DNA from: a virus | Strand: one strand, 5' to 3' | DNA: 64,000 nt | IMG/VR virus record: IMGVR_UViG_3300023174_004481 | Location: 8,542-72,541 of that record | In this document: positions 18,959 to 63,999 of the stretch, piece after piece | Position numbering within the stretch: the first letter of the stretch is position 1 | Layout of the letters: each line of letters starts with the position of its first letter | Translations under genes and position numbers: made by a program | The notes under the pieces: generated by a model | What the model was told of the DNA's origin: nothing | The model's input: the letters and a program-made list of their open reading frames with translations, nothing else | Database searches by the model: none

Positions 18959-18965
18959 TTATATA

Positions 18966-20632: not shown

Positions 20633-20774
20633 TAGTTAAAATTACACTTTAAAGTGTTTATTAAGAATATAAAATTAGCCATATTATTCTGTCGTTGCTT
20701 ACGCAATGTCCTGTTATTTTGTAAAGTTTCTCCCGAAAACAGTTAAAATATTCAGTCTGATAGGTTTTTTAAAT

Positions 20775-21035
20775 CAATTTATTAATATTTTCAATTTTAA
20801 ATGAAAATTTACTTATTGTTACCAATAAGATTGGACTATATCTTATTTATATTGCTATAAATTCGGGCGCTCGTGTCTCTTTTATTGTTGCGGTAACTCA
20901 AGAATTAGTCTCTACACCTTCTTATATCTTTATATCCGCGATATAAGCTTGGCTCGGTATTGTCCTAAATATGTCAAAGAACTATTTTTTATTTTTAGGG
21001 TTTCCACCGAATTCACCCGATAGGGCCAATTCATT
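20775..21035 (-). ncRNA. Group I intron-type ribozyme core, free-standing in an intergenic region
   Basis: On the minus strand: P3 UCGGGUG (21020-21014) pairs with CGCCCGA (20869-20863); P AAUUCGGUGGAAAC; Q AAUACCGAGCCAAG; R GAAGGUGUAGAGACU; S AAGAUAUAGUCC (20844-20833); P8 AUUUAUA-GCAA-UAUAAAU; P9 CUUAUUG-GUAA-CAAUAAG; candidate omega-G at 20775. Confidence 0.9.
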
Positions 21036-21040
21036 AGTAT

Positions 21041-21046
21041 TTACAC
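21041..21046 (-). promoter_or_regulatory. GTGTAA late-promoter motif directly upstream of the ribozyme core
   Basis: Same motif as in front of the virion genes, but no ORF follows it. Confidence 0.6.
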
Positions 21047-21074
21047 CAATTATTGGTTATTTATTTTAATAAAT

Positions 21075-24000
21075 TTAACAAAGAGAGGGTAATGATATAA
21101 AATTAGCGGGCCAAGGTGAGGTTGAAAATGGATAACCATTTTTGCTTGGACAATAATAAATATTAGCATTATAAGGCATTGGGAAATAGCCAACGCTAGG
21201 TGCATTTCCAAGGAAGTATACGTTTACAGGCCCAGGTGGTATATGAGCAAAAGCATAATCTTGGATACTTATTATTGTAGATGGAATAGTAATATTAGTT
21301 AATCCTGTACAATTAGTAAATGCATTGGTTGCTATAACTAATAAATTATTACCCAAATTTATACCAGTTAATTCGGAACAATTAACAAATGCGGCTACTC
21401 TAATATATTGAATACCATTTCCCATGTTCGCATATTTTAATTTACCACAATTAGCAAATGCCATATCTTGAATATCTATGAGATTATTTCCAATAGTATT
21501 TACTCCTGTTAATTCAGGACAATCGGCAAATGCAACTGTTTCCAAGTTTATTACGCTATTAGGTATAGTTAAAGATTTTAATTTTTGACAAGAACGAAAT
21601 GCGCCGAGTCCTATATTAGATACTCCATTTCCAAGATTTATATTTTCTAATTCTATACATGACCTAAACGCATACATTCCAATACCAGTGCAAGTATCAG
21701 GTATAGTTAAAGATTTTAATTTTTCACAAGAATCAAATGCACGGGTTTTAATATTATTTAGAGTATTTGAAAGAACAACGCCACTTAAGTTAGAGCAATA
21801 AGCAAATACGTCTTCATTAATTGTAGTTATGCCGTTTCCAATTATAACACCAGTTAATCCTGTGCAATAATAAAAAGCGTTAGACTCAATACTAGTAACA
21901 GTATTTGGAATTGTAATATTTTTAATTTTTACATAAGGATTAGACGCAAAAGCATAATCTTGAATAGTATTCACTTCCCTTCCAATATCAACTCCAGTTA
22001 AATCTTTACCAAAAGTAACACCATAGTCACTAAATGTAATTGTGGAATTCGAATGTGTAGAAACACTTCCATTTGAATAATAAAAAGTAGTGTTGGCAGG
22101 ACCAGGAGTAGTTGTTGTAGTTGTAGTTGTAGTAGTTGGTCCAACTGTAGTTGTAGTGCTAGTTGTTACCCCAGGACAAGAAGCGCTATAGCTATAATAT
22201 ACTCCATAACTACAATCTTCTGTATTTAAAATTTTAACATTAACAGTTAAATTATTTATTCCTGCTAATTTTGCAAATGAGAATGTTCCAGAAGAATTTG
22301 TTGTTCTTGATAATATTTTTACGCTATTATAATACAATTCAAACAATAATTCATATCCATTATCAGAAGAGTATGTAAAAATTATATTTCCAGTAGAAGT
22401 AGTTCCTAAATTTAGTAATCTTCTATGATTACAATAATAATCTACAAAATTAGTATCATCTGAATCAGTATAAGTAATTCCACAAGATCCATTTAATTCT
22501 ATTGGAGCAAGAGTTGTTGTTGTTGTAGTCGTTGTTGTTGTGGTTGTGGTTGTTGTTCTAGAACAATTTATACTATATTCATAATTATATTCATCACAAA
22601 ATCCGTCTTCTGGACCATCAATAGCTACAATAACTTTATCATACGCATCATTTTTAATAAAAGAATATGAACCATTATTATTTGAAATTATTGATGTTCC
22701 ATTATTAGAACTAACATAAGAGGTTCCATCCACAATATCAACTTTAATAAGTAATACGCTATTAGTTACATTTAAATTATAAATATAAAATGTTAAATTA
22801 GAAGTGCTGTACCAATTAAAAGTTAATATTCCATTTTGACTTCCAACATTTACTTCTCTAGCACCATAACATCTTCCAGGTAATGTTTTTCCATAATTCC
22901 ATATTTCATCTGATGTATAATATGTTGTATTACATGTTCCAAAAGTACAATAAGGCGCGAATGGATGTCTTGGAGTCGTTGTTGTAGTTGTGGTAGTTGT
23001 AGTTGTTGTCGTAGGAGGAGGAGTCGTGCTAGTGGTAGTAGTAGTTGTGGTCGTTGTCGTAGTAGTTATAATATAAGTATAAAATTTAGGATGACTTTTT
23101 CCTACAATCATAAAATATGCAACATCGTCTGATGCAATTGCAATCCAATTATCATTTTGTGAAGAAATTGTTACCTCTTGAAATGGTTCATCATTTCTGC
23201 TTACTAATATTTTATTTGTATCAGGTAAAACTAATGCTGGTTTGTTAATGGATATAACTCTAACTATGCCATCTTGCCATGATGTATTTCTATTATAATT
23301 AATAGTTTTTAAATCCGATAAAATATATGGACTAAAAGTTGAGCTGGTTTTCTTTTCCCAAGAATCGCCATAATCACTTATATAGTAAGATTCACTTGCA
23401 GACGTAATATTTAAATTTGTAAATTCATTTATAGTATTGTATATGCCTTTACTAATTTGATAACCATTACTAACAATTGGAGATTCACTAGTTTGAACCC
23501 AATTTATTCCATCTTCTGACCAAGCTGTTCTACCCAAAGAATCTATCACAATAAAACGACTATCTTTCGTAGCCACTCCAACCCAATATCCAACAAAAGG
23601 TAATGATCGTTTTGTCCAATTTATTCCATCTGTAGAAGTGGCGTAATTTACTCCATAAGCAAAACTTTCTCCACTATACGAAACCGCTACCCAAAGATTT
23701 AATGTATTATTATAAGCCGCAGCAGACCAATTTAAAGATGGCATTGAATTAGTAAAAGACCAATCTCTTCCATTTGATGAATACAATGCAAAATTACAAT
23801 TTCCATATAAATTAATATTACTATCTCCACAAAGTATTAAAAATTTTCCATTACCATAACAAATTCTTTTAACTTTACATTGATCTGGTAGAGTTGGTAA
23901 ACTAGCACTAGTCCAATCAATTTTATTTTCTGTGATATAAACTTTATTGTTATTTCCTAAAACTATCCAAGTATCAGTTGTCCCATTTTTTCCAAAAACA

Positions 24001-44834: not shown

Positions 44835-44894
44835 TTAATTTAAATAATTCCATCTTAGCCCAATGACTAAGGTAGTTTTATATAAATCATATAT
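44835..44894 (-). pseudogene. Orphan C-terminal fragment of a sixth array paralogue
   Basis: An out-of-frame reading IYDLYKTTLVIGLRWNYLN* resembles IYSLYKSTLGKGLGLP*. Confidence 0.6.
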
Positions 44895-45711
44895 AATTTA
44901 CATTTTGTCCAAGAGTCTTTTTAAATATACTTTTTAATAACTCTCTGTTAGAAAAAGTATTATAACTATTAAAAATAGCCACAAAATCAAACAAAGTTGT
45001 GCTTGTGCTGTTGTTTCTAGTTAGGATACTTAATGTACTCGGAGAAGTTCTAGTAAGACTAGCAGAGATTGGAGTTGTTGCACCAAAACGAGTAGTATCT
45101 AATATAGTAGTAATTGAAACGTTCGCCCTTGAATAAGCTATGCAATTAGGAATATTTAACATTGACGCAGTTGCGGCGCCATTTGCATAATTTCTAATTG
45201 CATCACTTCTAAAATAATTAAATGCAACTTGTCCTGTCCCTCCCGTGCTTCTATGACCATAAACTGTAGAATCTGTTGAAGAATATCTCATAGCGAAAAA
45301 TTCTGAACTTACATTTGTTGCTGTGCCTATAGGAGTAAAAAATGCTATAAAATTTGGCCCTTGAATTAAATCATTTATAATAAAATTAGATACATCTATA
45401 GTTGAAGAAAGATTAGGATCTAATAAAATTCCATTAGGAGTCCAAATTCCGTTATTAGTTATTGATCCATTAAATGCTGATTTTGCGAATCCTCCAAGGC
45501 TATAAACTGTGGTGCCAGAACCTGCATTATGAGGCTGACGCATTGGCCAACAAACCATATCGTCCCAAATTCCTATTTTTTTTATTTCAATAACAAATTG
45601 ATTTAATTGCCTTAAACTTTGCATGCTTAAACTTTGATTACCGCCAGCTATTATTCTAGCGTTATAAGCTAATACATCATTATCCATTCCGTATGTTTTA
45701 TTGGTTATCAT
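44887..45711 (-). CDS. Array paralogue 5 (conserved ends, variable LamG-like core)
   Basis: D.D..AY..RI..G, W.MR..HNAGSGTTVYSLGG, FKKTLG. Confidence 0.75.
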   Translation of the reverse strand: MITNKTYGMDNDVLAYNARIIAGGNQSLSMQSLRQLNQFVIEIKKIGIWDDMVCWPMRQPHNAGSGTTVYSLGGFAKSAFNGSITNNGIWTPNGILLDPNLSSTIDVSNFIINDLIQGPNFIAFFTPIGTATNVSSEFFAMRYSSTDSTVYGHRSTGGTGQVAFNYFRSDAIRNYANGAATASMLNIPNCIAYSRANVSITTILDTTRFGATTPISASLTRTSPSTLSILTRNNSTSTTLFDFVAIFNSYNTFSNRELLKSIFKKTLGQNVNYI

Positions 45712-46550
45712 GGTAGAGTTATTCCTTTGCCAATTGTACTTTTAAATAAACTTTCAAAACTTACAAAATTAATATCAATATCAAAAAAACAATGAAAAAT
45801 ATGAGTACCATGAAAGCCTGTTCCAAAACTTCCATTAGATGATTGAATAGATCCAGAGCTCCATCTACCACCAAATATAATACGATCATAAGATATTGTT
45901 CTTGGAATGTTAGTATTAGATGTAGAAGCTGATGTAAGAGTCGAAGAAGAATTTCTGCTTTCCGCTAATATTGTAGAAGAGTTAAAAGATCCTTTTACTA
46001 TTTTAAAAAGAGTATTTCCTGAAATATTGCTTGTGGAGTTGCTTTTTGATTCTGCGCCCCAACTAGTTCCACTACTACTTATTCCAAGAATTGAAATACC
46101 ATTGTTATAATAATTATTCGTACTAAGACTACTAACATAAGGATAACCATTTGTGAAATTTTCCATACCAGCAGGAGTACTCATAAATATAGAAAATAAA
46201 CTACATGTTTCAAGCAAATTGGGTCTTAGATTACAAGTTACATAATTAGAAAGAGAAGTTGTGGCATTTGCTATGCATACTAATCCTCTATCATTCCAAC
46301 TTGCAGTTGAAATATTATTGATTATACCATTATTAAAACTATCTCTAAAAGAGTAAAGAATATTACCACTTCCTACGTTATGATTTTTTCTAAAAAACCA
46401 AGCTTCTATCATATTATTGTATATACCAAGATCTTTTAAGCCTCTTATGAATTGATCTATTGAAATTATATCAGTTGGAGTTTGAATACCATTATAATTA
46501 AGGCGTTTTATATATTTTTTTGTATCGTTGTCTAATTGATAAAATCTCAT
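45708..46550 (-). CDS. Array paralogue 4
   Basis: MRFYQLD.DTK.Y; KSTIGKGITLP. Confidence 0.75.
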   Translation of the reverse strand: MRFYQLDNDTKKYIKRLNYNGIQTPTDIISIDQFIRGLKDLGIYNNMIEAWFFRKNHNVGSGNILYSFRDSFNNGIINNISTASWNDRGLVCIANATTSLSNYVTCNLRPNLLETCSLFSIFMSTPAGMENFTNGYPYVSSLSTNNYYNNGISILGISSSGTSWGAESKSNSTSNISGNTLFKIVKGSFNSSTILAESRNSSSTLTSASTSNTNIPRTISYDRIIFGGRWSSGSIQSSNGSFGTGFHGTHIFHCFFDIDINFVSFESLFKSTIGKGITLP

Positions 46551-47347
46551 GGTAGTCCAAGTCCTTTCCCAAGAGTAGATTTATAAAGTGAATAAATTAA
46601 ATCAATTGAATTTATATTACTTGGTAAAAAAATTGCACAAAACGAAGCAGTCATTGGATTTGCAAGATCTAAAGAGCCAGCGTTCCATCTGCCATTTATT
46701 TGAAGCCTATTTAATGTTGCAGTTCCAGATGTTGGAGATGCTCCGCTTGCTGATGTTCCATTTCGAAGATTTCTAATCCTTATAGTTCCACCAACTGAAG
46801 ATGAAATAGAATGAAAAACAAAATTAGTAGAAGCAGACATTCCATTTAAAATTGCGGTACTAGTAAGAAAATCTCCACTTGAATTTCTGTGAAATCCTTG
46901 AGCGTCTCCAGCTCCACCATTTGATGCAAAACGTATCTCGTTAGAATAAAAAGTAGAAGAAGACTGAACACCAAATATCATTGGATAAGAACCATAAGTA
47001 GTTCCATTTCCTGCGCCACAAAATAAAACTGTAACATCTTGACCAAGATCAATTAAACTTGCACTGATTTGTTGTGTACTGGAAAGAGATATACCGTTGC
47101 TTGCCCAAATTCCATCATGTGTTGCGGTTTGCATATTTAATCCGCCGAGTGAATAAACTATATTACCAGATCCAGCATTTTGATTTGATCTTAATGGCCA
47201 AAATGCTATATTTCCCCATAAATTTAAATCTTTTAATGCAACAACAAAATCATTAACAGAATAAATATCAGCTGGAGTTTTAATTCCATCAACAGCCATT
47301 CTTTTAAGATAGGCTTTTGTATCTCTGTCTAGTTTATAATATTTCAT
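46547..47347 (-). CDS. Array paralogue 3
   Basis: MKYYKLD.DTKAY; KSTLGKGLGLP. Confidence 0.75.
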   Translation of the reverse strand: MKYYKLDRDTKAYLKRMAVDGIKTPADIYSVNDFVVALKDLNLWGNIAFWPLRSNQNAGSGNIVYSLGGLNMQTATHDGIWASNGISLSSTQQISASLIDLGQDVTVLFCGAGNGTTYGSYPMIFGVQSSSTFYSNEIRFASNGGAGDAQGFHRNSSGDFLTSTAILNGMSASTNFVFHSISSSVGGTIRIRNLRNGTSASGASPTSGTATLNRLQINGRWNAGSLDLANPMTASFCAIFLPSNINSIDLIYSLYKSTLGKGLGLP

Positions 47348-48117
47348 GCTAGTCCAAGTCCTTTGCCTATTGTAGATTTATATAAAGAATAATAATTTAA
47401 ATATAAAGGATTAATATTATCATTAAAGATGACAACAGAAGAAGTTGTTGGATTTGGGTTTGAGCCAGCTGTAAGCCTATAATAAAAATCACCATTTGTT
47501 GTTCCATCTATATCCCAATTAAAACTTGCATTTGTTCCACCAGATTTATATGTTGTGCCAAAATAACCTTCAAAAGAAGTTGCTGATTTTAAAGAAAATA
47601 ATGTGCTTTTAAAATTATTTGAAGTTATTTGAGATCCAAGATTGAATTGTTGACCACCATCGTTTCGATATCCTAAATATTCTCTATTACCTCCTGGAAA
47701 AAAGAAATACCTATCTCTTGAAGCGCTAAGATGACCAAAAGCTATACTACTTGTATATCCACCAAAATTTGTATTATCTATTACATGAGTACTGAACGGA
47801 CTATTTTTAAATTTATATCCTCTTATAATAATATTCGAATTATCGATCCCGAAAAATAAACCATTAAAAGTCCAAACCGCGCTAGTAATAGTTCCATTAT
47901 ATAAACTATTTTTTAATGCATAAACTGTACTCCCTGATCCAGAATTTTGCTGTTGTCTTAATAGCCAAATCTCTTCTACGCTATTCCAAATATTTAAAAG
48001 TTTCAATCCTTTTACAAAATCACTAACACTATTAATATCAGCTGGACATTTATATCCAGCATCTACTATGCGCTTTGCATAATTTTTAACATCAATATCA
48101 AGATCATAAAATCTCAT
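47344..48117 (-). CDS. Array paralogue 2
   Basis: MRFYDLD.DVK.Y; KSTIGKGLGLA. Confidence 0.75.
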   Translation of the reverse strand: MRFYDLDIDVKNYAKRIVDAGYKCPADINSVSDFVKGLKLLNIWNSVEEIWLLRQQQNSGSGSTVYALKNSLYNGTITSAVWTFNGLFFGIDNSNIIIRGYKFKNSPFSTHVIDNTNFGGYTSSIAFGHLSASRDRYFFFPGGNREYLGYRNDGGQQFNLGSQITSNNFKSTLFSLKSATSFEGYFGTTYKSGGTNASFNWDIDGTTNGDFYYRLTAGSNPNPTTSSVVIFNDNINPLYLNYYSLYKSTIGKGLGLA

Positions 48118-48890
48118 GGTAATCCAAGTCCTTTTCCTATAGTTGATTTAACAATAGAATAAAAAGTATCAATCTGTGCTGATGAAAAAGCTCTGTCTGA
48201 AACTAATCCAAAAGATGTTGTACCTAATGATAATGGGCCTCCTCTTGGAAGCCAATCTCCAAAAGTTATTAAAGATGAAGGCGCAAAACTCATTGATATA
48301 TTTGATGTTGTTGCTGTTGAATTATTAGCTTTAAAAAGCAAAGTGTTAGTATCATAACTTGCGGCTAATTGATTGAATATTCCAACTGCAGTTGTAACTC
48401 CAAAATTATCATTTCCAGATCCATTATAAGCATCTAAACTTAATCTATCTGGACTAATTAGCGTTTTTAAAGCAAATCTGACTGTATTTAAATTACCATA
48501 AGAAATAGCTGGAGCTTCTGCAGAACTTCTTTTGGATACTGCAATTAAAGTTCTGTTAACTCTGCCTCCATTTGACTCTAATATAGCAGTCATATATTGC
48601 GTAGATACAGTCCTTATAATTCCAGTATTATCCCATACCATAGAAGCAGAAGACATTGTAGCATTATATCTATCATTTTTAAGAGCATATACAGTTGTTC
48701 CAGTTCCAATATTATGGTCTTTTCTCATTAACCAAACATCTAAAATATCAATCCAAAGATTATTAATCTTTAATTTTTTTATAAAATCACTAACATTAAC
48801 TATATCAGACGGAATTCTTCCGCCAGCTTTTACGATTCTGTTTGCGTAAGCTTTTGCATCAACATCAATATCATAGTATCTTTTATACAT
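48114..48890 (-). CDS. Array paralogue 1
   Basis: MYKRYYDIDVDAKAY; KSTIGKGLGLP; LamG-like GTTSFGLVSDRAFSSAQI. Confidence 0.75.
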   Translation of the reverse strand: MYKRYYDIDVDAKAYANRIVKAGGRIPSDIVNVSDFIKKLKINNLWIDILDVWLMRKDHNIGTGTTVYALKNDRYNATMSSASMVWDNTGIIRTVSTQYMTAILESNGGRVNRTLIAVSKRSSAEAPAISYGNLNTVRFALKTLISPDRLSLDAYNGSGNDNFGVTTAVGIFNQLAASYDTNTLLFKANNSTATTSNISMSFAPSSLITFGDWLPRGGPLSLGTTSFGLVSDRAFSSAQIDTFYSIVKSTIGKGLGLP

Positions 48891-49750
48891 TAAACTAGTT
48901 CCCAAGAAATATATTTAATATTTGTGCTTGGATAAGCTGCTACGCTAACTGGGCCATTATATTTTGGGGTGAAATCAAGGAAGTTTCCGCCATTATTATC
49001 AAATTCACTAGCTCCACCTTTTAATATAAGATTAAAACTACTACCAGTTATAACAGCGCCAGTTACTCCAAAGCTAACGCCAGTTGTTACCGTTGCTCCT
49101 GCACCAAATTTAAGATAAATATTTCCTGTGCCATAATTAGTAATACCCCAAGCAAGTCTACTATTATTGCCACTTAGTATTGTACCAACTCCAGTTTGTA
49201 TGGAATAATTGCTAGCATAACCACCAACTGGAGGAAATGCTGTGACACTATCAATATCTTTATCAAGATCTGCTTGAAGAGTTAGTGCGCCACCACCTTG
49301 AGAGTCAATATTTAATACTGCATTTGCATTTCTACCGTATTGAGGAAAAAATCCAGAAGCTACATCAACTGCTCGTCCTCCAACTGCTCCAAATTCAATT
49401 GGAACTCCTGATGAATATAATCCAGTACTAGTTCCAGATCCAGTTATATATCCAGTTAAATAACCAGAACAAAAATCATACTCTTCACTTGGCACATCAT
49501 AAAATATTTGCAATTTATCAGTATTGGCCATTGAGGTTGTATTATAACCCAATAAAAATCCGCTAGTTGAATTAACAGCTCCTGTAGTTGCTGAATCTGC
49601 GAAATTGTATATTATTTGTCCGCTACTTACATTAGTAATTAATAGTAGACTCTCAAGATTTACTGGATTTTGAGGTCCGTAAAGAGATGTTGGAAAATTA
49701 ACAATTTTGCTACTTGCTAAGAATTGGTATCCTGTTATAAGTTTTTTCAT
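48890..49750 (-). CDS. Virion structural protein
   Basis: LLLITNV..GQIIYNFA, M...DKLQIFYD (common phage fibre N-module); C-terminal R....I.N.G...IYLKFG module. Confidence 0.6.
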   Translation of the reverse strand: MKKLITGYQFLASSKIVNFPTSLYGPQNPVNLESLLLITNVSSGQIIYNFADSATTGAVNSTSGFLLGYNTTSMANTDKLQIFYDVPSEEYDFCSGYLTGYITGSGTSTGLYSSGVPIEFGAVGGRAVDVASGFFPQYGRNANAVLNIDSQGGGALTLQADLDKDIDSVTAFPPVGGYASNYSIQTGVGTILSGNNSRLAWGITNYGTGNIYLKFGAGATVTTGVSFGVTGAVITGSSFNLILKGGASEFDNNGGNFLDFTPKYNGPVSVAAYPSTNIKYISWELV

Positions 49751-53602: not shown

Positions 53603-53947
53603 TTATCTCGTTACTTCTGGTAAAATTGAAAACTTTCCTCGCATTAATTTAATAGTATTTCCAGTAGGTATTCCAGATGGATATCTTTCAATATCATAAA
53701 TATGATCGCTAACTGGAAGATCTTGTGAAATATAAGAATTAATATTAATTGCAATCGTACCAGATGTACTATTAGTAATAGTAGGATTTAAATCTAATAA
53801 AACTCCTGTAGCACCATAATTAGTGCGAACTTGACCTCTTACCTGATAGCCACTTAAATTTAGTGCTGTTCCGTTGCTATCTTTTAAATTTAACGTTAAT
53901 TGTATATAGTCGCCTTGATACCCAGTAATATTGTAAAATGTTGCCAT
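53603..53947 (-). CDS. BppU-N-like fibre attachment protein
   Basis: YQGD....L.LKD..G..LNLSGY..RGQVR...YDIE...GKF.I.PEVTR. Confidence 0.7.
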   Translation of the reverse strand: MATFYNITGYQGDYIQLTLNLKDSNGTALNLSGYQVRGQVRTNYGATGVLLDLNPTITNSTSGTIAININSYISQDLPVSDHIYDIERYPSGIPTGNTIKLMRGKFSILPEVTR

Positions 53948-56800: not shown

Positions 56801-59800
56801 TTATGATTCTGGGTTAGTTACTATTAACTGATCACTTGAGTTGAAATATCTTAATCTCTGAATTAGTGATGCATTTTTAAATAGTGTTGTGTTATATCCA
56901 GAATATACATGAGTTGATGATGTAAAAACTATATTGTTAATATCATCTTCACTAGTGTTAAATATAAAACCGCTTCCTATTGTGTTATACTGAAAATTGT
57001 TTCCTATGGTGTTATTGTTAAAATAGTTTCCTATGGTGTTACTGTTAAAATAGTTTCCTATGGTGTTAACTCCAAAACTAAACCCTATAGTATTAGCCGC
57101 AAAATAGTTTCCTATAGTGTTGTCGTAAAAATTATCTTTTGTAGTATTGCCGTGAAAATTGTTTCCTATAATGTTACCTTCAGCACCAGCTCCAATCATA
57201 TTAGTATAGCAACTGTTTCCTATGTTATTGGTGGCAAAACTATTTCCAACAAAATTTTGATAAAAATAATTTCCTATAGTATTGATATTGAAATAACTTC
57301 CAATAAAATTAGTATTGAAAACGTTTCCGATTTTATTGTAAGCAAATTGGCTTGAAATAGTATTACCAAAATTACTACTTTCTAAAGCATTAAAAAAGAA
57401 ATTATCTCCAATATTATTATAACTAAAATTAATCCCAATAGTATTATTGTTGAAACCACGTCCAATCATATTAGAATAAAAAAAGTCTCCAATAGTATTA
57501 GCATAAAAATATTCTGCGATAAGATTAAAAAAACAATTATTCCCAATAGTGTTATTGTTTGTATTAGAACCAAACATTACATTGTTATGTCCACCTTTTA
57601 TTTTTATATTATAAGTATTATTTAATAAAAAAGTTCCTAATCCAGTAAAAGTAGAAGTAAAAGTTGGTTGTTGAATTCTTGAACTAGGAATGGCTGGTAA
57701 TTGTATTATAAAATCACCTACATTATATTCATCATATAAACCCACAAACGCAAGACCTTCTTCTGTAGGAAAATAAGTTCCACTTTCAACAAAATCTGAT
57801 ACAGGTGTCCAAAAATTAGTATTAGTTAAAGCATTTCCACTATTACCTGTAACTAATGAATAATAAAGTTTGCCACGATTAGAATTATTTCCAGTTTCTT
57901 TAACAAAATTTAATCTAGTATATTGATAATTTCCAGAATAATTAGGAACAGAACTAACATCTGGTTTACAGCAATTAACTGTTATATTTCTCCAGTCGTA
58001 AGGAATATCAATATTAAGAATATTATCTATTCTTCTGTAAATCCAACCTTTAAAGTTTGGTATAGCTGCATTATTATTTATCTGTCCCCAAGAGTAGGAA
58101 CCACTTGCATCTATATTATAATAAATTGTATCTTGAGGATAAGTTTCTGATTGAGCTATGTGGTATATTTTATTTTTAGAAAGCGCAGTAACAATAAGGG
58201 GTTCTATAACAGTTCCTGATTTTACTGTTTGATCATTGATTGATTGATTGTTCCATTTAAGAATAAAATCTGAAATTCTATATAATTGGCCGCTAAATAA
58301 ACCATTACTTGCTATTAGTCCTGTTAAGTTTGAATATGTGGTATTTAAAATTTGTCCAGTATTGTAAACTAAATTAGTAGTATAAACTTTATCAAAAACT
58401 CCAGTTAAAGTATTTCCAGAAATTAAACCAGAAACAATTAGTCCGTTTTTTAATTCCATTATTGCGTTAGACTGATCAATTGTTAATATATCTGATGCAC
58501 TTCCATACGTTCCTGTTTTATAAATAGTAATTGAACTATTGTGTTGATTACTTCCTGGTGCACCAAAAAATGGATTTACTTGTATATTGCCATCTAAATA
58601 AATTGTTCCTTTAGATGTACTAGCATTGTTTCTTCCAACAGATAGATTTAAATTACCAGGAGTAGATACAGCATTTCCAGCATATAAATTTAAATTACCT
58701 CCGCTTGTAGCTCCAGATGCACTAGAAATAGTTATACTATCTCCAGAATCTCCATTAAAAGATGCAAAATTAGTTATAATATTAATGCCACTTCCAGAAA
58801 CTCCAGAAATATTGCTCATAAATACTGGACTTGCAAATGTTTTTACTCCACTTATACTTTGAATGCCAGTATTATAAACTACGTTAGGAGCAACTATACC
58901 AGTTGCAAACGTTTTAATACCGCTGACAGTTTGAGTACCAGTATTATAAACAACATTAGGAATGACTACTCCAGTTGCAAAAGTTTTTACTCCACTAATG
59001 GTTTGATTGCCAGTATTATAAACAAGATTAATTGCGCTAATTGAATTTGTAGAAGTAACAACTCCGCTTGTTATAGTTATATCTACTCCAGAAAGATTTA
59101 AAGTATCCATGTTACTTAAATCAAGAGCATTGAAATATCCAGTGCCAGAAACTTGAAGATTACCAGACATTACTACTCCTGTTGTAAATGTTTTACTTCC
59201 ACTTATAGTTTGAGTTCCACTAGTTTGTACAACTGTATTTGAAATTTGACCAGCTTCTCCGCTTAATAATATTCCAGTGCCATTTACAGTTGGTCTATCA
59301 ATAAAAGCTTTAACTCCACTTATTGTTTGATTGCTAGTATTATAAACTAAGTTATCTGCATAAAGATTTCCATCTATTAATTCATCTGTTTTAGAAATAT
59401 AAATTTGTCCATTATAAGAAACTAAAGATTGATACTTTCCATCACTACTAATTGAAACCTCATAACAAATTCCAATTCCATTTCTTTTCAAGGTCCAAGT
59501 ATTACCATAATCTATAGAAACATAAACTCCATCATTACCAGCAAGCGCGGTTTGATATTTACCATTGCTACTTATTGAAATTGAACTCCAATTTCTACTG
59601 CTATCTTTTATTACCCAAGTATTACCATAATCTGCAGAAATATAAATTTCAAATCCATTTCCAACTGCTGTTTGATACTTTCCATCACTACTAATTGAAA
59701 TATTTTGCCACATTTTGGAAGTTGCTTTTGCTGCCCAAGTATCACCATAATCATTAGATATATAAATATTTCCATTTTGAGCAGTTGCAGATTGATATTT

Positions 59801-62581
59801 TCCATCGTTGCTTATTGAAATTGAATTCCAACTTAAAGTATTAGTATTTTTACGAGTCCAAGTATTGCCGTAATTATTGGAAATATAAATACCACCTCCA
59901 CTTATAGTTGCAGATTGATATTTTCCATCACTACTAATTGAAACTGAATTCCAAGCTCCAGATTGAGTACCAGTAAAAGTCCAAGTATTACCATAATCAG
60001 AAGATATATATATAAAGCCACCTGTTACAACCGCTGTTTGATACTTGCCATCGCTACTGATTGATACGCTCCACCAGAGTCTATTAATGTCTTTTGCTGC
60101 CCAAGTATTACCATAATCTGTAGAAACGTAAATTTGTCCAGCATTAACTATAGCAGTTTGATATTTACCATCGCTACTGATTGAGATGCCATACCAAGCG
60201 CGATTACTTTGTTTAGCAGTCCAAATGCTTCCAAAATTACTATCAACTAATCTACTAGTATTTTGAGAAAGTTTTGTTGTTCCTAAAAAATATCCTCCAT
60301 CATAATTTCCAGAATATCCTATTCCAGTAAGATATCCACTTGGTTTTGAAATTTGTAAAAGATTATCTTGAATTACTAAATTATTAGTAAAATTTTTAAT
60401 TCCACTTATGATTTGATTTCCAGTATTATAAACAAGATTTTTAGGGATTGGATGAGTATGATCTATTTTAGAATAAATATCTGTTGATCCATTTGATCCA
60501 CTATTTGTTAAAGGAATTGCTGGTAAATTATATGGACTTGTTGATCTAAAAGACCACTCACCATTACTTTCAGTAAACCAATCATATGTTATATTACTTT
60601 CCCAATTTGAATTGGTATTTTGACTTATGACCGTAGGATAGTTTTCTGCTCGTTCTGCTGAATTTTCGTTATCTCCATATATATATTTTAAAATCCATGT
60701 TTTAGAATTATTTGTTAATGATATTGAATTTCCTGGCCAAGTTATTGTAGATAAAGAATTTCCTGTATTAGTTGATTGTAATGTATAAGCAGTTGTTCCC
60801 TCACAAACTCCACTTAAAATCCAATAATTTGAAGGTAATTTATAAAGATAATTTAATGTACTAAAAGCGGTATCTTGTCCTATTCCAGTATATTCAATAT
60901 AAATTTGCGAAAAATAAGCATTTCCTTTAGTAGTTGGATTTTGAGTATCTGAAAAAAGAGTTAAAGAAGCTTCAGAAGGTACTCCTAAAATATTATTTAC
61001 AGAATTAAAATTATTAACTTTTAAACTATATTGATGAGCAAGTTCATAATAATAATCATTACCACCATAACGGTCACTATAAAAACTAAGAAGATATCTA
61101 AATACTGAACTAGGCCATTCTCTATATATTTTTTTTCCTCCTAATGCATATTGATCATATGGACTATTATAATCTCCACTTAAAAAACAATGTAAATTAC
61201 CAAAATAATTAACTTCCTCAGTTACTTCTACTTCATCAGGGTCATTATTATAAAAGGTATTTATTGTACCTATTTTAAAAACTTGAGTAAAAATATCTGA
61301 ATAAAACCAAAGTCCAGTTGGATAATTTGTAGGAGTTGATGTTAATACTTTATCCCACCTATTATATTTTTTAATATATAGTCCATCATTTATTTTACTA
61401 AAAATTGTTCCAACGCCAGCAGAAGGATTATTATATTTTATATAAAGTCCTGCATTGTCATTACTTGAAAGATCTATGCTTCCCCCAGTTCCTCCTACTG
61501 CATCCTGTCTTTGTCCTGCTGATAAATTTATACTTCCACCATTACTCTCAAAAGCAGATGATAAATTTATAGAGCCTCCAACTATAAATCCTCCTCCATC
61601 TGAAACTCCACTAGATACTATTGAGCCTCCGCCATGTGAAAGGTTAATGCTTCCACCACCATTTGAAAGATTTATACTTCCGCCTGGAGTTTGTTCATTT
61701 TGTCCTCCAGCTAAATTAATACTTCCACCAGGAGCATTTTCAGGATTGCCAGCATTTAAATTTATAGAACCGCCATATGAAAAATTGTCATCATTTATGG
61801 AACCTATGCTAGATATATTACCACCATTATTTGAAAGATTTATTGATCCACCAGTTGCAGTAATATTATTATATTGATCAAATTGACCATTAGATATAAT
61901 ATCTCCTCCTGCTTTAGAAAGATCTAATACTCCTCCATTAGATGAAAGATTTATGTATCCTCCACTACCTGATTCTGTAGAATTTAAATTTATAAAACCG
62001 CCATTGAGATATTGACCATTACTGCCATATGCATTTGCTTCTATGTATCCACCAACTGCTGCTTGGCCTCCACCATTTAGTTGTATATATCCGCCATGTG
62101 AATCTTCTCCTCCAGCATTTAATTGTATATAACCTGCATTAGATCTATAACCTCCATTTGCTTGAATAGATCCACCAGCTCCAGCATTTGCATCCTGAGT
62201 TATACCTCCTCCTCTTAATTGAATAAATCCTCCATTACCGCCATTACCTATTTGGTATTCTGGTTCTGGCTCTTCTGGGTTTAATCCTCCTCCTCTTAAA
62301 TCAATAAATCCACCATCACCACCTCTTGCCCCATAAATTGAAGAAGAACTTCCTCCATCTAAATAAATATTTCCACCTACTCCGCCAATTCCAGCATTAG
62401 CACTAGTTCCACTTCCTGCAGTTATAATAGAAGTATCAAGATAAATTGCACCAGTTGAAAAAATTTTAGTCCCAGATATAATTTGAGTACCAGTATTATA
62501 AACTAGATTGGGAGCAATTACTTCGTTATTAAAACGACCACTATTTGATAGTAATGTCTTAGCTTTAAATCTTTGTGCCAT
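56801..62581 (-). CDS. Large mosaic tail fibre/adhesin
   Basis: GG.I.L Gly-rich repeats; 7-bladed SISSDGKYQ..YGNTW propeller; NLVYNTGNQTISG.KTF repeats; N.IG..F decapeptide beta-helix. Confidence 0.8.
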   Translation of the reverse strand: MAQRFKAKTLLSNSGRFNNEVIAPNLVYNTGTQIISGTKIFSTGAIYLDTSIITAGSGTSANAGIGGVGGNIYLDGGSSSSIYGARGGDGGFIDLRGGGLNPEEPEPEYQIGNGGNGGFIQLRGGGITQDANAGAGGSIQANGGYRSNAGYIQLNAGGEDSHGGYIQLNGGGQAAVGGYIEANAYGSNGQYLNGGFINLNSTESGSGGYINLSSNGGVLDLSKAGGDIISNGQFDQYNNITATGGSINLSNNGGNISSIGSINDDNFSYGGSINLNAGNPENAPGGSINLAGGQNEQTPGGSINLSNGGGSINLSHGGGSIVSSGVSDGGGFIVGGSINLSSAFESNGGSINLSAGQRQDAVGGTGGSIDLSSNDNAGLYIKYNNPSAGVGTIFSKINDGLYIKKYNRWDKVLTSTPTNYPTGLWFYSDIFTQVFKIGTINTFYNNDPDEVEVTEEVNYFGNLHCFLSGDYNSPYDQYALGGKKIYREWPSSVFRYLLSFYSDRYGGNDYYYELAHQYSLKVNNFNSVNNILGVPSEASLTLFSDTQNPTTKGNAYFSQIYIEYTGIGQDTAFSTLNYLYKLPSNYWILSGVCEGTTAYTLQSTNTGNSLSTITWPGNSISLTNNSKTWILKYIYGDNENSAERAENYPTVISQNTNSNWESNITYDWFTESNGEWSFRSTSPYNLPAIPLTNSGSNGSTDIYSKIDHTHPIPKNLVYNTGNQIISGIKNFTNNLVIQDNLLQISKPSGYLTGIGYSGNYDGGYFLGTTKLSQNTSRLVDSNFGSIWTAKQSNRAWYGISISSDGKYQTAIVNAGQIYVSTDYGNTWAAKDINRLWWSVSISSDGKYQTAVVTGGFIYISSDYGNTWTFTGTQSGAWNSVSISSDGKYQSATISGGGIYISNNYGNTWTRKNTNTLSWNSISISNDGKYQSATAQNGNIYISNDYGDTWAAKATSKMWQNISISSDGKYQTAVGNGFEIYISADYGNTWVIKDSSRNWSSISISSNGKYQTALAGNDGVYVSIDYGNTWTLKRNGIGICYEVSISSDGKYQSLVSYNGQIYISKTDELIDGNLYADNLVYNTSNQTISGVKAFIDRPTVNGTGILLSGEAGQISNTVVQTSGTQTISGSKTFTTGVVMSGNLQVSGTGYFNALDLSNMDTLNLSGVDITITSGVVTSTNSISAINLVYNTGNQTISGVKTFATGVVIPNVVYNTGTQTVSGIKTFATGIVAPNVVYNTGIQSISGVKTFASPVFMSNISGVSGSGINIITNFASFNGDSGDSITISSASGATSGGNLNLYAGNAVSTPGNLNLSVGRNNASTSKGTIYLDGNIQVNPFFGAPGSNQHNSSITIYKTGTYGSASDILTIDQSNAIMELKNGLIVSGLISGNTLTGVFDKVYTTNLVYNTGQILNTTYSNLTGLIASNGLFSGQLYRISDFILKWNNQSINDQTVKSGTVIEPLIVTALSKNKIYHIAQSETYPQDTIYYNIDASGSYSWGQINNNAAIPNFKGWIYRRIDNILNIDIPYDWRNITVNCCKPDVSSVPNYSGNYQYTRLNFVKETGNNSNRGKLYYSLVTGNSGNALTNTNFWTPVSDFVESGTYFPTEEGLAFVGLYDEYNVGDFIIQLPAIPSSRIQQPTFTSTFTGLGTFLLNNTYNIKIKGGHNNVMFGSNTNNNTIGNNCFFNLIAEYFYANTIGDFFYSNMIGRGFNNNTIGINFSYNNIGDNFFFNALESSNFGNTISSQFAYNKIGNVFNTNFIGSYFNINTIGNYFYQNFVGNSFATNNIGNSCYTNMIGAGAEGNIIGNNFHGNTTKDNFYDNTIGNYFAANTIGFSFGVNTIGNYFNSNTIGNYFNNNTIGNNFQYNTIGSGFIFNTSEDDINNIVFTSSTHVYSGYNTTLFKNASLIQRLRYFNSSDQLIVTNPES

Positions 62582-62653
62582 ATATTTGTTGTTATTAGCT
62601 TACGCTAAATTGCTGCTTTTTTAGGGCAGACTAACAACCAATATTACACAAAA

Positions 62654-62992
62654 TTATCGGCCTTCTGCTAGAATATCTCTTGCAGTTTTACTTAATTTAA
62701 TATTATTTTTTGTTTTTGGTGCTGGTTGATAAAGAGAAACGTGTTTGTTGAATTCTTTTTCTAATCTTTTTACTAGAGTCTCTCTATTGTCTACTGGAAT
62801 AAGACCTACTTTAACTGCGTGAGCTTGAAGATCGCTTTTAGTTAATTCTTTTAAATATTTTTGATACTCTGCAAGCACTAGTGTTCCATATTTAGATTGA
62901 CCAGAATCTCCCCAAATTTGGTCTAGTGTTCTTGGGCTTTCTACTTGTCCGTGAGTTTGTGTTAATGAATCTAATTTACTTTTCTTTGGCAT
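62654..62992 (-). CDS. Small basic protein with a Rho-N/HeH-like module
   Basis: LTKSDLQAHAVKVGL....RETLVKRL; directly after the capsid gene. Confidence 0.6.
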   Translation of the reverse strand: MPKKSKLDSLTQTHGQVESPRTLDQIWGDSGQSKYGTLVLAEYQKYLKELTKSDLQAHAVKVGLIPVDNRETLVKRLEKEFNKHVSLYQPAPKTKNNIKLSKTARDILAEGR

Positions 62993-63009
62993 ATTTTCTC
63001 CTATACTAT

Positions 63010-63038
63010 ATTCTATATATTAAAACTTGAAATGTCTA
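63010..63038 (-). promoter_or_regulatory. sigma70-like promoter
   Basis: TAGACA, 17-bp spacer, TAGAAT on the minus strand; SD AGGAG before ATG 62992. Confidence 0.55.
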
Positions 63039-63040
63039 AT

Positions 63041-63079
63041 AAAAAAAGAAGCCCACAGGGATTATCCTGTGGGCCTCTT
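63041..63079 (-). terminator. Intrinsic terminator after the major capsid gene
   Basis: GCCCACAGG stem followed by UUCUUUUUUU on the minus strand. Confidence 0.9.
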
Positions 63080-63099
63080 AATATTAATCTAAAGATTAA

Positions 63100-63999
63100 T
63101 TAGGTGCGCTTGATGGAGATACCAGCAACTGCACGAGAATCGATACAAACGCGGCCTTCTTCGAGAGAACCGTAGAATCCGATTTTCTCAGAACGGGCAA
63201 CGAATTGATCGTCAGGCATTGCAGTGAAGGTACTGCCAGAATCAGCGTTACGGGCAATTGGACGAACAAATGCATCTTTAGTTAGGTCAAGACCTACGAT
63301 GACATCATCTCCGTCAGCAAAAGTTCCGCTATAGAACTCATTAAAGAGTTTGTTGTACTTTTGGTTTGAGCCAAGTTCAACTAGTTCATGGATACTGATT
63401 CCATAAATCTCTTGAGTTCCACCACCACGATAGATCTCTTCACGAACACCAGCTGGAAGATCGTTGATTGGAGCAACGGTTGTTGCAGATGGTACGCTGC
63501 TATTAGCATAACCACCACCAACTGGATTATAAGCGAATGCACGGATGTCACTCATAGTTTCTGGACTAACGAAGATATCGGTTAGACCATAGGAACTATT
63601 AGTTGTGCCACCAGCATAAGATCTATTTAATCTTTTAACATTCTTTACTAAAGTATTAAGTTTAGAAAGTGTGAAAGATTCTGTACTTCCACCTTGAGCT
63701 ACAGTGTTGCCACTATCAGCCAAAGCTTTTAGTACTACTGCCCAAGCGTTACGTTCTTGTTTGATAAGAACTTCATTGGTCATTCTCTCGATTGCTTTTG
63801 AAGCAACATCAAGACGACCACGACGGGCATAACGTTTTAGGAAAGAAACTGCGCTATCTAGACGATAGGTAGAAACTTTCAATTCAGATAGACCTTCAAC
63901 TGTTGAAGTTGGAAGACCACCTGCTACATTTTGACTCCAAACGGAGACTAGACCTTCACCTTCGCCTTGGAATAGATCAAGAGGGATAGAAGGACTATC
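63100..63999 (-). CDS. Major capsid protein, HK97-like (5'-partial)
   Basis: The frame is open to the window end; P-domain-like IFVSPE, GFYG.LEEGR; strongly biased codons; followed by a terminator. Confidence 0.8.
   Translation of the reverse strand, partial: DSPSIPLDLFQGEGEGLVSVWSQNVAGGLPTSTVEGLSELKVSTYRLDSAVSFLKRYARRGRLDVASKAIERMTNEVLIKQERNAWAVVLKALADSGNTVAQGGSTESFTLSKLNTLVKNVKRLNRSYAGGTTNSSYGLTDIFVSPETMSDIRAFAYNPVGGGYANSSVPSATTVAPINDLPAGVREEIYRGGGTQEIYGISIHELVELGSNQKYNKLFNEFYSGTFADGDDVIVGLDLTKDAFVRPIARNADSGSTFTAMPDDQFVARSEKIGFYGSLEEGRVCIDSRAVAGISIKRT

What the first reader, a model, noticed from the sequence alone, without database searches (positions are those of the whole stretch)
62588..62649. 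Structured leader of the giant fibre gene resembles the RNA downstream of the ribozyme
Seen on the minus strand right after GTGTAA: GUUGUUA-GU-CUGC(CCUAAAAAA)GCAG-CAAU-UUAGC(GUAA)GCUAA-UAACAAC-AAAUAU-AUGGCA. This has the same layout as 20763-20689 (AG.CUG..CAG, 4-nt linker, GC-GUAA-GC hairpin, closing stem, 6 nt, AUGGC), 42 kb away, with compensatory differences. Inference: a recurrent phage RNA motif, either a translational operator or a GNRA-bearing docking substrate for the orphan ribozyme in trans.
Basis: partly seen in the sequence, partly recalled or inferred. Interest (0 to 1): 0.7.

Follow-up and report, generated by a model that had tools for sequence, protein, structure and literature searches.

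The report
Conserved RNA leader of fibre genes
A small folded RNA just upstream of a phage tail-fibre gene is real and conserved in related lake phages, but it is unrelated to the sequence beside the ribozyme it was compared with, and its probable job of tuning fibre production is untested.

Summary
The fold described at 62588-62649 (minus strand) is there exactly as written. It has a 7-bp closing helix, a 4-bp hairpin with an A-rich loop and a 5-bp GUAA hairpin. It lies between a GTGTAAT box and the ATG of the 1926-aa fibre gene.

A leader-blind protein search recovered 33 more fibre-gene starts from metagenomes, and all 33 carry the same core. On 31 distinct sequences, 93.3% of cells pair, and 10 of 17 pairs change on both sides; 0 of 500 shuffles reach either value. 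The hairpin loop varies only at the N of GNRA. The junction nucleotides are invariant.

The element is single-copy per phage record. It always sits 5-13 nt before the start codon. It has no Rfam match.

The claimed twin at 20689-20763 fails every test: covariance-model E = 8.7, a fold no better than shuffles, and no conservation in the homologous ribozyme locus. Eight other leader-bearing records have no group I intron hit.

Best reading: a new cis-acting 5'-UTR RNA of one fibre-gene family, most likely a translation-control operator. That mechanism is inferred, not shown. It is not a ribozyme substrate.

The parts
62643..62649 (-). GTGTAAT box, a late-promoter-like motif (function inferred)
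   Evidence: All 13 GTGTAAT copies in the window lie 6-62 nt upstream of an ATG on the same strand. 12 of them sit at the start of a listed ORF of at least 60 aa. 74 of 80 relatives have GTGTAA after the upstream gene's stop. The spacing to ATG is 6-15 nt in 65 of them and 59-63 nt only in the 5 with this leader.
62632..62638 (-). P1 5' strand (GUUGUUA)
   Evidence: It pairs with 62588-62594. On 31 sequences 86% of cells pair and 4 of 7 pairs change on both sides. The helix is weak in the distant classes, with a C.A mismatch in 18 sequences.
62612..62631 (-). P2 hairpin: G62631-C62612, bulged U62630, CUGC/GCAG, loop CCUAAAAAA
   Evidence: 100% of cells pair and 4 of 5 pairs covary: CUGC/GCAG, UCGC/GCGA, CUAUC-GAAA-GAUAG.
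62609..62611 (-). Junction J2/3 (AAU)
   Evidence: The first A is invariant in 31 sequences. Together with the invariant UAG(U) before P2 and the C after it, this forms the conserved junction.
62595..62608 (-). P3 hairpin UUAGC-GUAA-GCUAA (GNRA tetraloop)
   Evidence: 96.8% of cells pair and 2 pairs covary, with a U.G intermediate in L128. The loop is G-N-A-A in 26 of 31 sequences (N = U 1, C 14, A 11).
62588..62594 (-). P1 3' strand (UAACAAC)
62579..62587 (-). A/U-rich spacer AAAUAU and the ATG of the fibre gene (ORF 56801-62581, 1926 aa)
   Evidence: Pfam BppL_N. The element ends 5-13 nt before the start codon in all 31 sequences.
20689..20763 (-). 'Site 2': variable sequence between the ribozyme core and the next GTGTAAT box. 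It is not a copy of the leader.
20812..21089 (-). Group I intron-like ribozyme (context only)
   Evidence: RF00028 at 66 bits against a gathering score of 50. Homologues score 73.3 bits in L132 and L133.

Best explanation
The 51-nt element at 62638-62588 (minus strand) is a genuine, selected RNA structure in the 5' untranslated leader of a family of phage tail-fibre genes. Its core is two hairpins (P2, P3) joined by an invariant junction. In the window's clade a helix (P1) closes them into a three-way junction.

The gene family is defined by the N-terminus MA(Q/N)xFKAK...APNLVYNTG. The element is therefore not specific to the giant gene. It is transcribed with the gene from the GTGTAAT box and acts in cis.

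Most likely it is a translation-initiation control element, that is, an operator recognised by a trans-acting factor through its conserved junction. This would set how much or when fibre is made, in a phage whose other late genes have almost no leader.

Shown: the structure, its conservation, its strand, its single-copy and gene-specific distribution, and its fixed position before the start codon. Inferred: that GTGTAAT is a promoter, that the RNA controls translation, and that a factor binds it.

The resemblance to 20689-20763 and any tie to the ribozyme are chance.

My confidence that the structure is real and conserved is about 0.9. The figure below is for the proposed mechanism.
For: 1. 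Unbiased recovery. A metagenome scan with peptide patterns from the fibre N-terminus gave 35 loci. 33 of them are gene starts, and all 33 carry the core upstream.

2. Covariation. This was measured on a sequence-only MAFFT alignment of 31 distinct leaders.
- 93.3% of cells pair, against 84.1% in shuffles (0 of 500 reach it).
- 10 of 17 pairs change on both sides, against 4.8 expected (0 of 500).
- Slid controls give 23-65% paired.
- RNAalifold independently predicts P2 and P3, with 5 of 9 pairs compensatory and none broken.

3. Strand. The P3 loop is GNAA in 26 of 31 sequences and varies only at N. The gene is on the same strand, and no ORF of at least 60 aa lies opposite.

4. Sequence-level selection. 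The window's class and class II differ by only 6% in the core. The adjacent coding sequence is 66% identical, and 53% at third codon positions. The junction nucleotides are invariant.

5. Anchoring. The distance from the element to the start codon is 5-13 nt in 31 of 31 sequences. The distance from GTGTAA to the element is -1 to 36 nt.

6. Gene-specific and single-copy. There is one copy each in G000, G005 (133.6 kb, 87% complete), G006, G011 and G012. There is none in the complete relatives G007 and G008. There are no further copies in 88 loci totalling 454,502 bases.

7. The exception among late genes. The usual GTGTAA-to-ATG spacing is 6-15 nt with no Shine-Dalgarno sequence.
Against: - There is no expression, 5'-end or binding data of any kind.
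- Thermodynamic modelling does not show occlusion of the ribosome site. The 12 nt before the start codon are predicted mostly unpaired (mean 0.81, against 0.73 when the upstream part is shuffled). In 14 of 31 leaders they are more open than in at least 85 of 100 shuffles. Only L114 is clearly closed.
- P1 is weak or ambiguous outside the window's clade and is absent from the RNAalifold consensus.
- The two loops swap type between classes (GNRA or CYUAAAA), so they cannot both be specific contact sites.
- Several covarying pairs are differences between classes, so the number of independent events is small, roughly eight.
- If GTGTAAT acts like a -10 element, transcription may begin inside P1 in the window's clade.
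Confidence: 0.4

Rival explanations
1. The element is an mRNA 5' stabiliser or processing module. In this view a compact fold at or near the 5' end protects the fibre mRNA from 5'-end-dependent decay. Alternatively it is cut, for example as a tRNA-like substrate, to leave a short-leader mRNA like the other late genes.
For: In the window's clade P1 begins 5 nt after GTGTAA, so the fold would sit at the very 5' end. P1 (7 bp) stacked on P3 (5 bp) with no linker, plus a 4-bp side arm with a 9-nt loop, has the dimensions of an acceptor/T-stem stack with a D-arm. That follows from the sequence; the tRNA dimensions are recalled. The ribosome site is predicted open.
Against: In 18 of 31 leaders the element lies 33-36 nt from the GTGTAA box, behind another hairpin, so a 5'-terminal position is not conserved. 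A generic stabiliser does not need 94% sequence identity or an invariant junction. ARAGORN finds no tRNA-like gene, and there is no T-loop. The genes downstream range from 305 to 1926 aa, so mRNA length is not the common factor.
Confidence: 0.2
2. The element is a nut-like processive antitermination site. A U-rich BoxA-like strand followed by a GNRA-fold hairpin would load host Nus factors and a phage protein onto RNA polymerase. Transcription would then read through the long fibre gene and the late genes behind it.
For: In classes II and III (15 of 31 leaders) the strand just 5' of P2 matches 8 of 9 positions of the E. coli rrn BoxA. I derived that BoxA from passages of PMC3177189. P3 is a 5-bp hairpin with a GNRA loop, and the same paper describes BoxB as a stem-loop recognised as a GNRA fold. 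The element lies in a promoter-proximal leader.
Against: The window's own leader matches only 6 of 9 BoxA positions, and that strand is paired in P1. The 9-mer pattern has no match anywhere in the window. It occurs 3-7 times per relative genome, close to chance. A fixed distance to the start codon is not expected of a nut site. There is one site per genome. No N-like protein was identified. The host and its BoxA are unknown.
Confidence: 0.1
3. The element is a ligand- or temperature-sensing switch, that is, a small riboswitch or RNA thermometer. The marginally stable A/U-rich P1 would open or close the start region.
For: Covarying helices surround the invariant junction. P1 is A/U-rich and forms only partly at 37 C in the model, more at 15 C. 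In class II the 3' strand of P1 overlaps an AAGGA Shine-Dalgarno sequence.
Against: The junction has only about 4 unpaired nucleotides. An alternative long-hairpin fold has no covariation support: 80.2% paired, 1 pair changed on both sides, and 82 of 500 shuffles reach its score. Shine-Dalgarno overlap is not conserved across classes, and the window's class has none. No Rfam riboswitch matches.
Confidence: 0.1
4. The element is a DNA-level cassette boundary. In this view the conserved leader plus the N-terminal codons serve mainly as a homology patch for swapping fibre modules between phages, like the PeSL promoter/stem-loop cassettes of T4-type phages. They could also serve as a protein-binding DNA site.
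For: The leader and the first 32 or so codons are conserved, while the rest of the fibre differs in length and sequence (305 to 1926 aa). The core is 94% identical between classes whose coding sequence is 66% identical, which would fit recent exchange. PeSL papers exist (PMC2839356, PMC4122927; seen only as a search listing and the start of each abstract).
Against: Compensatory changes keep the helices while the sequence changes, which homology-driven recombination does not explain. The GNRA constraint applies to one strand only. There is a single copy per genome, whereas PeSLs are many per genome (that point is recalled).
Confidence: 0.07
5. This is the first reader's reading: the leader and 20689-20763 are two copies of one motif, and the leader is a GNRA-bearing substrate or docking partner of the group I ribozyme acting in trans.
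For: Both sites hold GCGUAAGC (3 copies in the window against 0.39 expected), followed 17-18 nt downstream by AUGGC. G000 does hold a group I-like ribozyme.
Against: Covariance-model E is 8.7, with no hit from the close-relative model. The alignment score lies within about the top 5% of background. Site 2 is unstructured and is not conserved in L132 or L133, where conservation decays just after P9.1. No intron hit was found in 8 other leader-bearing records, and no leader in the 2 other ribozyme-bearing records. GNRA hairpins are common here.
Confidence: 0.03

Closest known systems
Phage translational operators in 5' leaders, such as the Mu com-mom hairpin, the T4 RegA, gp32 and gp43 operators, and the MS2 coat-protein hairpin
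   Same: A small, gene-specific structured RNA sits next to the start codon of a phage gene, with sequence-level conservation that suggests a specific binder.
   Different: No binder is known. This element has two hairpins and a junction rather than one hairpin or a pseudoknot. There is no homology: nothing in Rfam 15 matches. The ribosome site is predicted open, not occluded.
Lambda-type nut sites and rrn antitermination leaders, with BoxA, spacer and BoxB (PMC3177189, passages read)
   Same: A U-rich single-stranded box is followed by a 5-bp hairpin with a GNRA fold, in a promoter-proximal leader. Classes II and III match BoxA at 8 of 9 positions.
   Different: The window's copy matches 6 of 9 positions and is base-paired. 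An extra hairpin lies between the box and the GNRA hairpin. The loop is a tetraloop, not a pentaloop. The element is at a fixed distance from the start codon and occurs once per genome.
5'-terminal stabiliser stem-loops of bacterial and phage mRNAs, such as the ompA leader (recalled)
   Same: In the window's clade the fold would lie at the extreme 5' end of the transcript.
   Different: In most relatives it is internal to the leader. Its sequence is conserved far beyond what a generic hairpin needs.
PeSL mobile regulatory cassettes of T4-type phages (PMC2839356, PMC4122927; search listing only)
   Same: A promoter and stem-loop unit borders variable genes, so it may also serve module exchange.
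   Different: PeSLs combine an early promoter with a terminator and are repeated many times per genome (recalled). This element is single-copy, lies downstream of the promoter box and has covarying helices.
Peripheral GNRA hairpins of group I introns (L2, L9) and their receptors
   Same: A GUAA tetraloop on a short helix. The window's own ribozyme has a GUAA-capped P9.
   Different: There is no sequence or model similarity to the ribozyme region and no co-occurrence with it.

Membership tests
Any Rfam 15 family | A covariance-model match on the leader's strand | tested here: not met
   There were 0 hits at gathering score in the whole window. No minus-strand hit at E<=10 in 62500-62750. No hit in the leader region of 6 relatives at E<=1.
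Same motif as 20689-20763 | A significant score of site 2 against a model of the leader family | tested here: not met
   R1 gives no hit at E<=10. R2 gives 11.4 bits, E 8.7, the 36th of 38 hits.
Same motif as 20689-20763 | Site 2 is itself structured and conserved | tested here: not met
   z -0.33, with 71 of 200 shuffles folding as well. It is not alignable in the homologous locus L132 or L133.
Trans substrate of the group I ribozyme | The leader and a group I ribozyme occur together in the same phages | tested here: inconclusive
   Only G000 has both. 8 other leader-bearing records have no RF00028 hit, and 2 ribozyme-bearing records have no leader. All of these records are fragments (15-87% complete).
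Trans substrate of the group I ribozyme | Pairing with the internal guide sequence, or cleavage or ligation of the leader | not testable with these tools
   This needs an in vitro reaction. The ribozyme's guide sequence and exons are themselves undefined.
Lambda-type nut site | An 8-9 nt BoxA matching the host consensus and left single-stranded | tested here: not met
   The window's strand matches 6 of 9 positions and is paired in P1. The pattern has 0 matches in the window. Classes II and III match 8 of 9. The host is unknown.
Lambda-type nut site | A BoxB-like hairpin with a GNRA fold | tested here: met
   P3 has a 5-bp stem and a GNAA loop in 26 of 31 sequences. It is a tetraloop, whereas BoxB has a pentaloop (that point is recalled).
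Lambda-type nut site | A cognate N-like protein and downstream terminators that are read through | not tested
   I did not search for these.
tRNA or tRNA-like element | Detection as a tRNA or tmRNA; presence of a T-loop | tested here: not met
   ARAGORN finds 0 genes in the window. The loop of P3 is a 4-nt GNRA, not a 7-nt T-loop.
Intrinsic terminator | A G+C-rich stem followed by a run of U | tested here: not met
   No terminator-like site was called at the leader. The only one in 62300-63100 is at 63079-63046.
Repeated palindromic or mobile element (REP, MITE or PeSL type) | Several copies per genome | tested here: not met
   One copy each in G000, G005, G006, G011 and G012. No further copy in 454,502 bases of relatives.
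Riboswitch | Ligand-dependent change of structure | not testable with these tools
   Only indirect evidence is available: an invariant junction, and an alternative fold with no covariation support.

The most novel reading that the evidence does not exclude
The invariant junction of this two-hairpin RNA is the binding site of a factor not yet identified, either a phage or host protein or a small molecule. If so, the element is a new class of riboregulator. It would gate synthesis of the host-recognition fibre in a phage lineage whose other late mRNAs are nearly leaderless. A related form of this reading is a nut-like site that loads antitermination factors.
Probability: 0.15. Interest if true: 0.7.

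Novelty: new variant of a known kind. Interest (0 to 1): 0.4.

Why it matters
Tail fibres decide which hosts a phage can infect. Here a conserved RNA leader and a conserved N-terminal adaptor of about 35 residues head fibres of very different length and sequence. If the RNA controls how much or when fibre is made, it is a regulatory handle on host recognition in an uncultured group of freshwater phages of about 170 kb.

It would also be a clean new RNA motif (about 50 nt, strong covariation, invariant junction) for structure and ligand or protein studies.

The negative result matters too. The proposed link between this leader and the orphan group I ribozyme should not be pursued on the present evidence.

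Tried and rejected
- Site 2 as a second copy: rejected.
- Ribosome-site occlusion by P1 as the mechanism: partition-function models at 37 C and 15 C leave -12..-1 mostly open. I therefore keep only 'translation control' in general. The assumed 5' ends are guesses, and 37 C is not a lake temperature.
- Alternative long hairpin (hairpin-1 loop pairing with the 5' strand of hairpin 2): it is nearly isoenergetic in the window's clade but has no covariation.
- Possible pairing of the 5' strand of P2 with the start codon region (UGCC with GGCA), and an 11-nt-receptor-like pairing in the window's clade: noticed only; not conserved in L109 or L110; not tested further.
- BoxA reading: see the rivals.
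- Exact-pattern scans of viral contigs returned only the same 5 contigs, and later 8.
- The genome-contig scan gave one hit inside a 398-aa ORF of a higher-GC MAG contig, with no P2 or P1 beside it. I judged it a chance match.
- L089, L125, L126 and L141 are internal repeats of the fibre motif, not gene starts. I left them out of the leader counts.
- The 'phages' collection gave no DNA match to the leader region. The DnaE-like polymerase has only distant hits there, with the best rows at 26-32% identity. The phage has no cultured close relative and its host is unknown.
- Papers. A search for the GTGTAA box with 'phage' and 'promoter' gave nothing relevant among the 15 papers listed of 2,147. 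A search for structured RNAs before tail-fibre genes listed 15 of 63 papers, none describing this motif. These two searches are my only basis for saying I found it nowhere in print. Passages of PMC7029224 say late promoters could not be predicted in pelagimyophages. I found no evidence that this phage belongs to that group.
- Sequencing runs: no RNA holder was listed. I did not use read laying, because only DNA contigs were on offer.

Full report
**What is at the coordinates**

On the minus strand the upstream 112-aa gene stops at 62656-62654. A GTGTAAT box follows at 62649-62643, then ATTG, then the element:
- P1 5' strand GUUGUUA, 62638-62632.
- G62631 and U62630.
- P2, CUGC-CCUAAAAAA-GCAG, 62629-62613.
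- C62612 and the linker AAU.
- P3, UUAGC-GUAA-GCUAA, 62608-62595.
- P1 3' strand UAACAAC, 62594-62588.
- Spacer AAAUAU, then the ATG at 62581.

That ATG opens a 1926-aa ORF (56801-62581) with Pfam BppL_N matches.

ViennaRNA finds the same three-helix fold. On energy alone it is only mildly unusual: z -1.4 to -1.6, with 11-15 of 200 shuffles folding as well.

**The genomic setting**

The window is part of an IMG/VR virus record of 72.5 kb, estimated 47% complete, with about 30% G+C. It has a DnaE-like polymerase and no close cultured relative.

GTGTAAT occurs 13 times in the window. That is no more than chance in number (10.9 expected). All 13 copies, however, lie 6-62 nt upstream of an ATG on the same strand, and 12 sit at the start of a listed ORF.

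Among 80 relatives found through the upstream 112-aa protein, 74 have GTGTAA after the stop codon. The spacing to the next ATG is 6-15 nt in 65 of them, and 8-10 nt in 46. It is 59-63 nt only in the 5 that carry this leader.

I read GTGTAAT as a late-promoter-like box that gives very short leaders without a Shine-Dalgarno sequence. This is an inference. The fibre leader is then a structured insert of about 50 nt between the box and the ATG.

**Is the structure selected?**

The 5 close relatives add one compensatory change and some loop variation, which is too little to decide.

I then searched metagenome contigs with peptide patterns from the fibre N-terminus, so the search was blind to the leader. 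It returned 35 loci. 33 are gene starts with MA(Q/N)xFKAK...APNLVYNTG, and all 33 have the core upstream.

The window and those starts give 31 distinct leaders, which I aligned with MAFFT.
- RNAalifold, which was not told my structure, predicts P2 and P3. 5 of its 9 pairs are compensatory and none is broken.
- Counting my three-helix structure, 93.3% of cells pair, against 84.1% in shuffles.
- 10 of 17 pairs change on both sides, against 4.8 expected.
- No shuffle out of 500 reaches either value, and slid controls give 23-65% paired.

The helices behave as follows:
- P2 switches among CUGC/GCAG, UCGC/GCGA and CUAUC-GAAA-GAUAG.
- P3 switches among UUAGC/GCUAA, UUAGU/ACUAA (with a U.G intermediate in L128) and UUGG/CCAA.
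- P1 is well formed in the window's clade. Elsewhere it is weaker, with a C.A mismatch in 18 sequences.

The universal core is therefore two hairpins and a junction. The three-way junction is secure only for the window's clade.

The loop of P3 is G-N-A-A in 26 of 31 sequences, varying only at N. The nucleotides UAG(U) before P2 and C-A after it are invariant. This points to an RNA on the gene's strand.

Between the window's class and class II the core is 94% identical, while the first 96 nt of coding sequence are 66% identical and third codon positions 53%. Sequence, and not only shape, is under constraint.

**Distribution**

The model R2 finds one copy each in G000, G005 (133.6 kb, 87% complete), G006, G011 and G012. 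It finds none in two complete relatives of 172-175 kb. It finds nothing beyond the known copies in 88 loci.

The genes behind the leader range from 305 to 1926 aa. The leader therefore belongs to the fibre family's conserved head, not to the giant size of this particular gene.

The element ends 5-13 nt before the start codon in all 31 sequences. Its distance from the GTGTAA box runs from -1 to 36 nt. No Rfam family matches.

**The second site and the ribozyme**

A group I intron-like ribozyme is present at 20812-21089, scoring 66 bits. The whole-window scan with fast filters missed it.

Site 2 (20689-20763) lies between that ribozyme and the GTGTAAT box of the next gene.
- It scores 11.4 bits, E 8.7, against R2, the 36th of 38 chance-level hits. 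It gets no hit from R1.
- Its local alignment score to the leader is matched by 4.7% of windows and 6% of shuffles.
- It does not fold better than shuffles.
- In the only homologous ribozyme loci (L132 and L133, 73.3 bits), similarity runs from a GTGTAA box before P3 to just past P9.1 and then decays. No GCGTAAGC hairpin is present there.
- GNRA hairpins are common in this genome.

8 other leader-bearing records lack any RF00028 hit, and the 2 ribozyme-bearing records lack the leader. All are fragments. So the likeness is chance, and the trans-substrate idea has no support.

**How it most likely works**

Three things argue for a cis-acting element that controls translation initiation through a specific binder at the junction. 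It keeps a fixed place just before the start codon. It is restricted to one gene family. Its sequence is tightly conserved. I put this at about 0.4.

I could not show simple occlusion. The modelled ribosome site is mostly open, and in 14 of 31 leaders it is unusually so. An alternative long hairpin has no covariation support.

The rivals, with my estimates, are:
- A 5' stabiliser or processing module, 0.2. The fold is 5'-terminal in the window's clade and has tRNA-like helix lengths, but ARAGORN finds nothing.
- A nut-like antitermination site, 0.1. Classes II and III match BoxA at 8 of 9 positions, but the window's own copy does not.
- A ligand or temperature switch, 0.1.
- A DNA-level exchange cassette like PeSLs, 0.07.

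No expression data could be obtained (see Tried and rejected).

**Verdict**

The leader fold is real and turns out to be a conserved, previously uncatalogued RNA motif of a phage fibre-gene family. The twin site and the ribozyme link are not real.

Novelty: a new variant of a known kind, namely a structured cis-acting leader RNA.

Interest: 0.4. The covariation is solid and the gene context is relevant to host range, but the function is unknown and the family is small, seen in freshwater metagenomes only.

Noticed in passing
window 16307-62649: 13 GTGTAAT sites (16313-, 16327+, 20647-, 24688-, 26999-, 28291-, 38819-, 44791-, 49771-, 53961-, 54139-, 56761-, 62649-): GTGTAAT, preceded by A/T-rich sequence, sits 6-30 nt before the ATG of late-strand genes. 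The spacing peaks sharply at 8-10 nt in relatives, and these genes have no Shine-Dalgarno sequence. This looks like a lineage-specific late promoter that gives nearly leaderless mRNAs. Genes with longer spacing (38819, 16313) do have an AGGA-like sequence.
   Followed up: partly
window 20633-21089 (-); L132 and L133 601-1200: The group I-like ribozyme scores 66 bits and was missed by the whole-window gathering scan. It follows the stop codon of the LRR gene. In L132 and L133 the homologous ribozyme follows a different gene. Conservation starts at a GTGTAA box about 25-35 nt before P3, and no 5' exon is conserved. A short TGGCTAAT stretch further downstream is shared, and it heads mini-frames of 14-16 codons. 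The ribozyme may be transcribed from its own box rather than being a classical intron.
   Followed up: partly
window 63046-63079 (-) and 63010-63038 (-): A strong intrinsic-terminator-like hairpin (14 pairs and a T run) is followed by a sigma-70-like promoter (10 of 12 positions), just upstream of the 112-aa gene. The fibre gene may therefore also be co-transcribed from there.
   Followed up: no
window 53603-53947 (-): In most of the 80 relatives the 112-aa gene is followed directly by a homologue of this 114-aa gene (phrog_1084). In the window's clade the fibre gene and several small genes (about 54.1-62.6 kb) lie between them. In other relatives the leader-bearing fibre lies a few kb further on.
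   Followed up: partly
L105-L124 (class II and III leaders), about 90-100 nt before the start codon: Distant relatives have longer leaders. These carry an extra AGAATT...AATTCT hairpin followed by a T run, a palindrome overlapping the GTGTAAT box, an AAGGA Shine-Dalgarno sequence, and in class II a GTG start codon.
   Followed up: partly
G007:C1:156181-162246; L141 1501-1584; L089 221-388: The peptide motif of the fibre N-terminus (...EVIAPNLVYNTG.Q.ISG.K.F...) recurs inside very large fibre frames of relatives. G007 has 6 matches in open frames of 1477 and 1873 aa.
   Followed up: no
window 44887-49750 (-) and 18122-20632 (-): There are runs of six and three consecutive ORFs of similar size (257-286 aa). 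Whether they are paralogues was not tested.
   Followed up: no
L137 4457-4479 (MAG contig): A 23-nt match to the leader's second hairpin lies inside a 398-aa ORF of a higher-GC bacterial contig, with no neighbouring P2 or P1. I judged it a chance match.
   Followed up: yes
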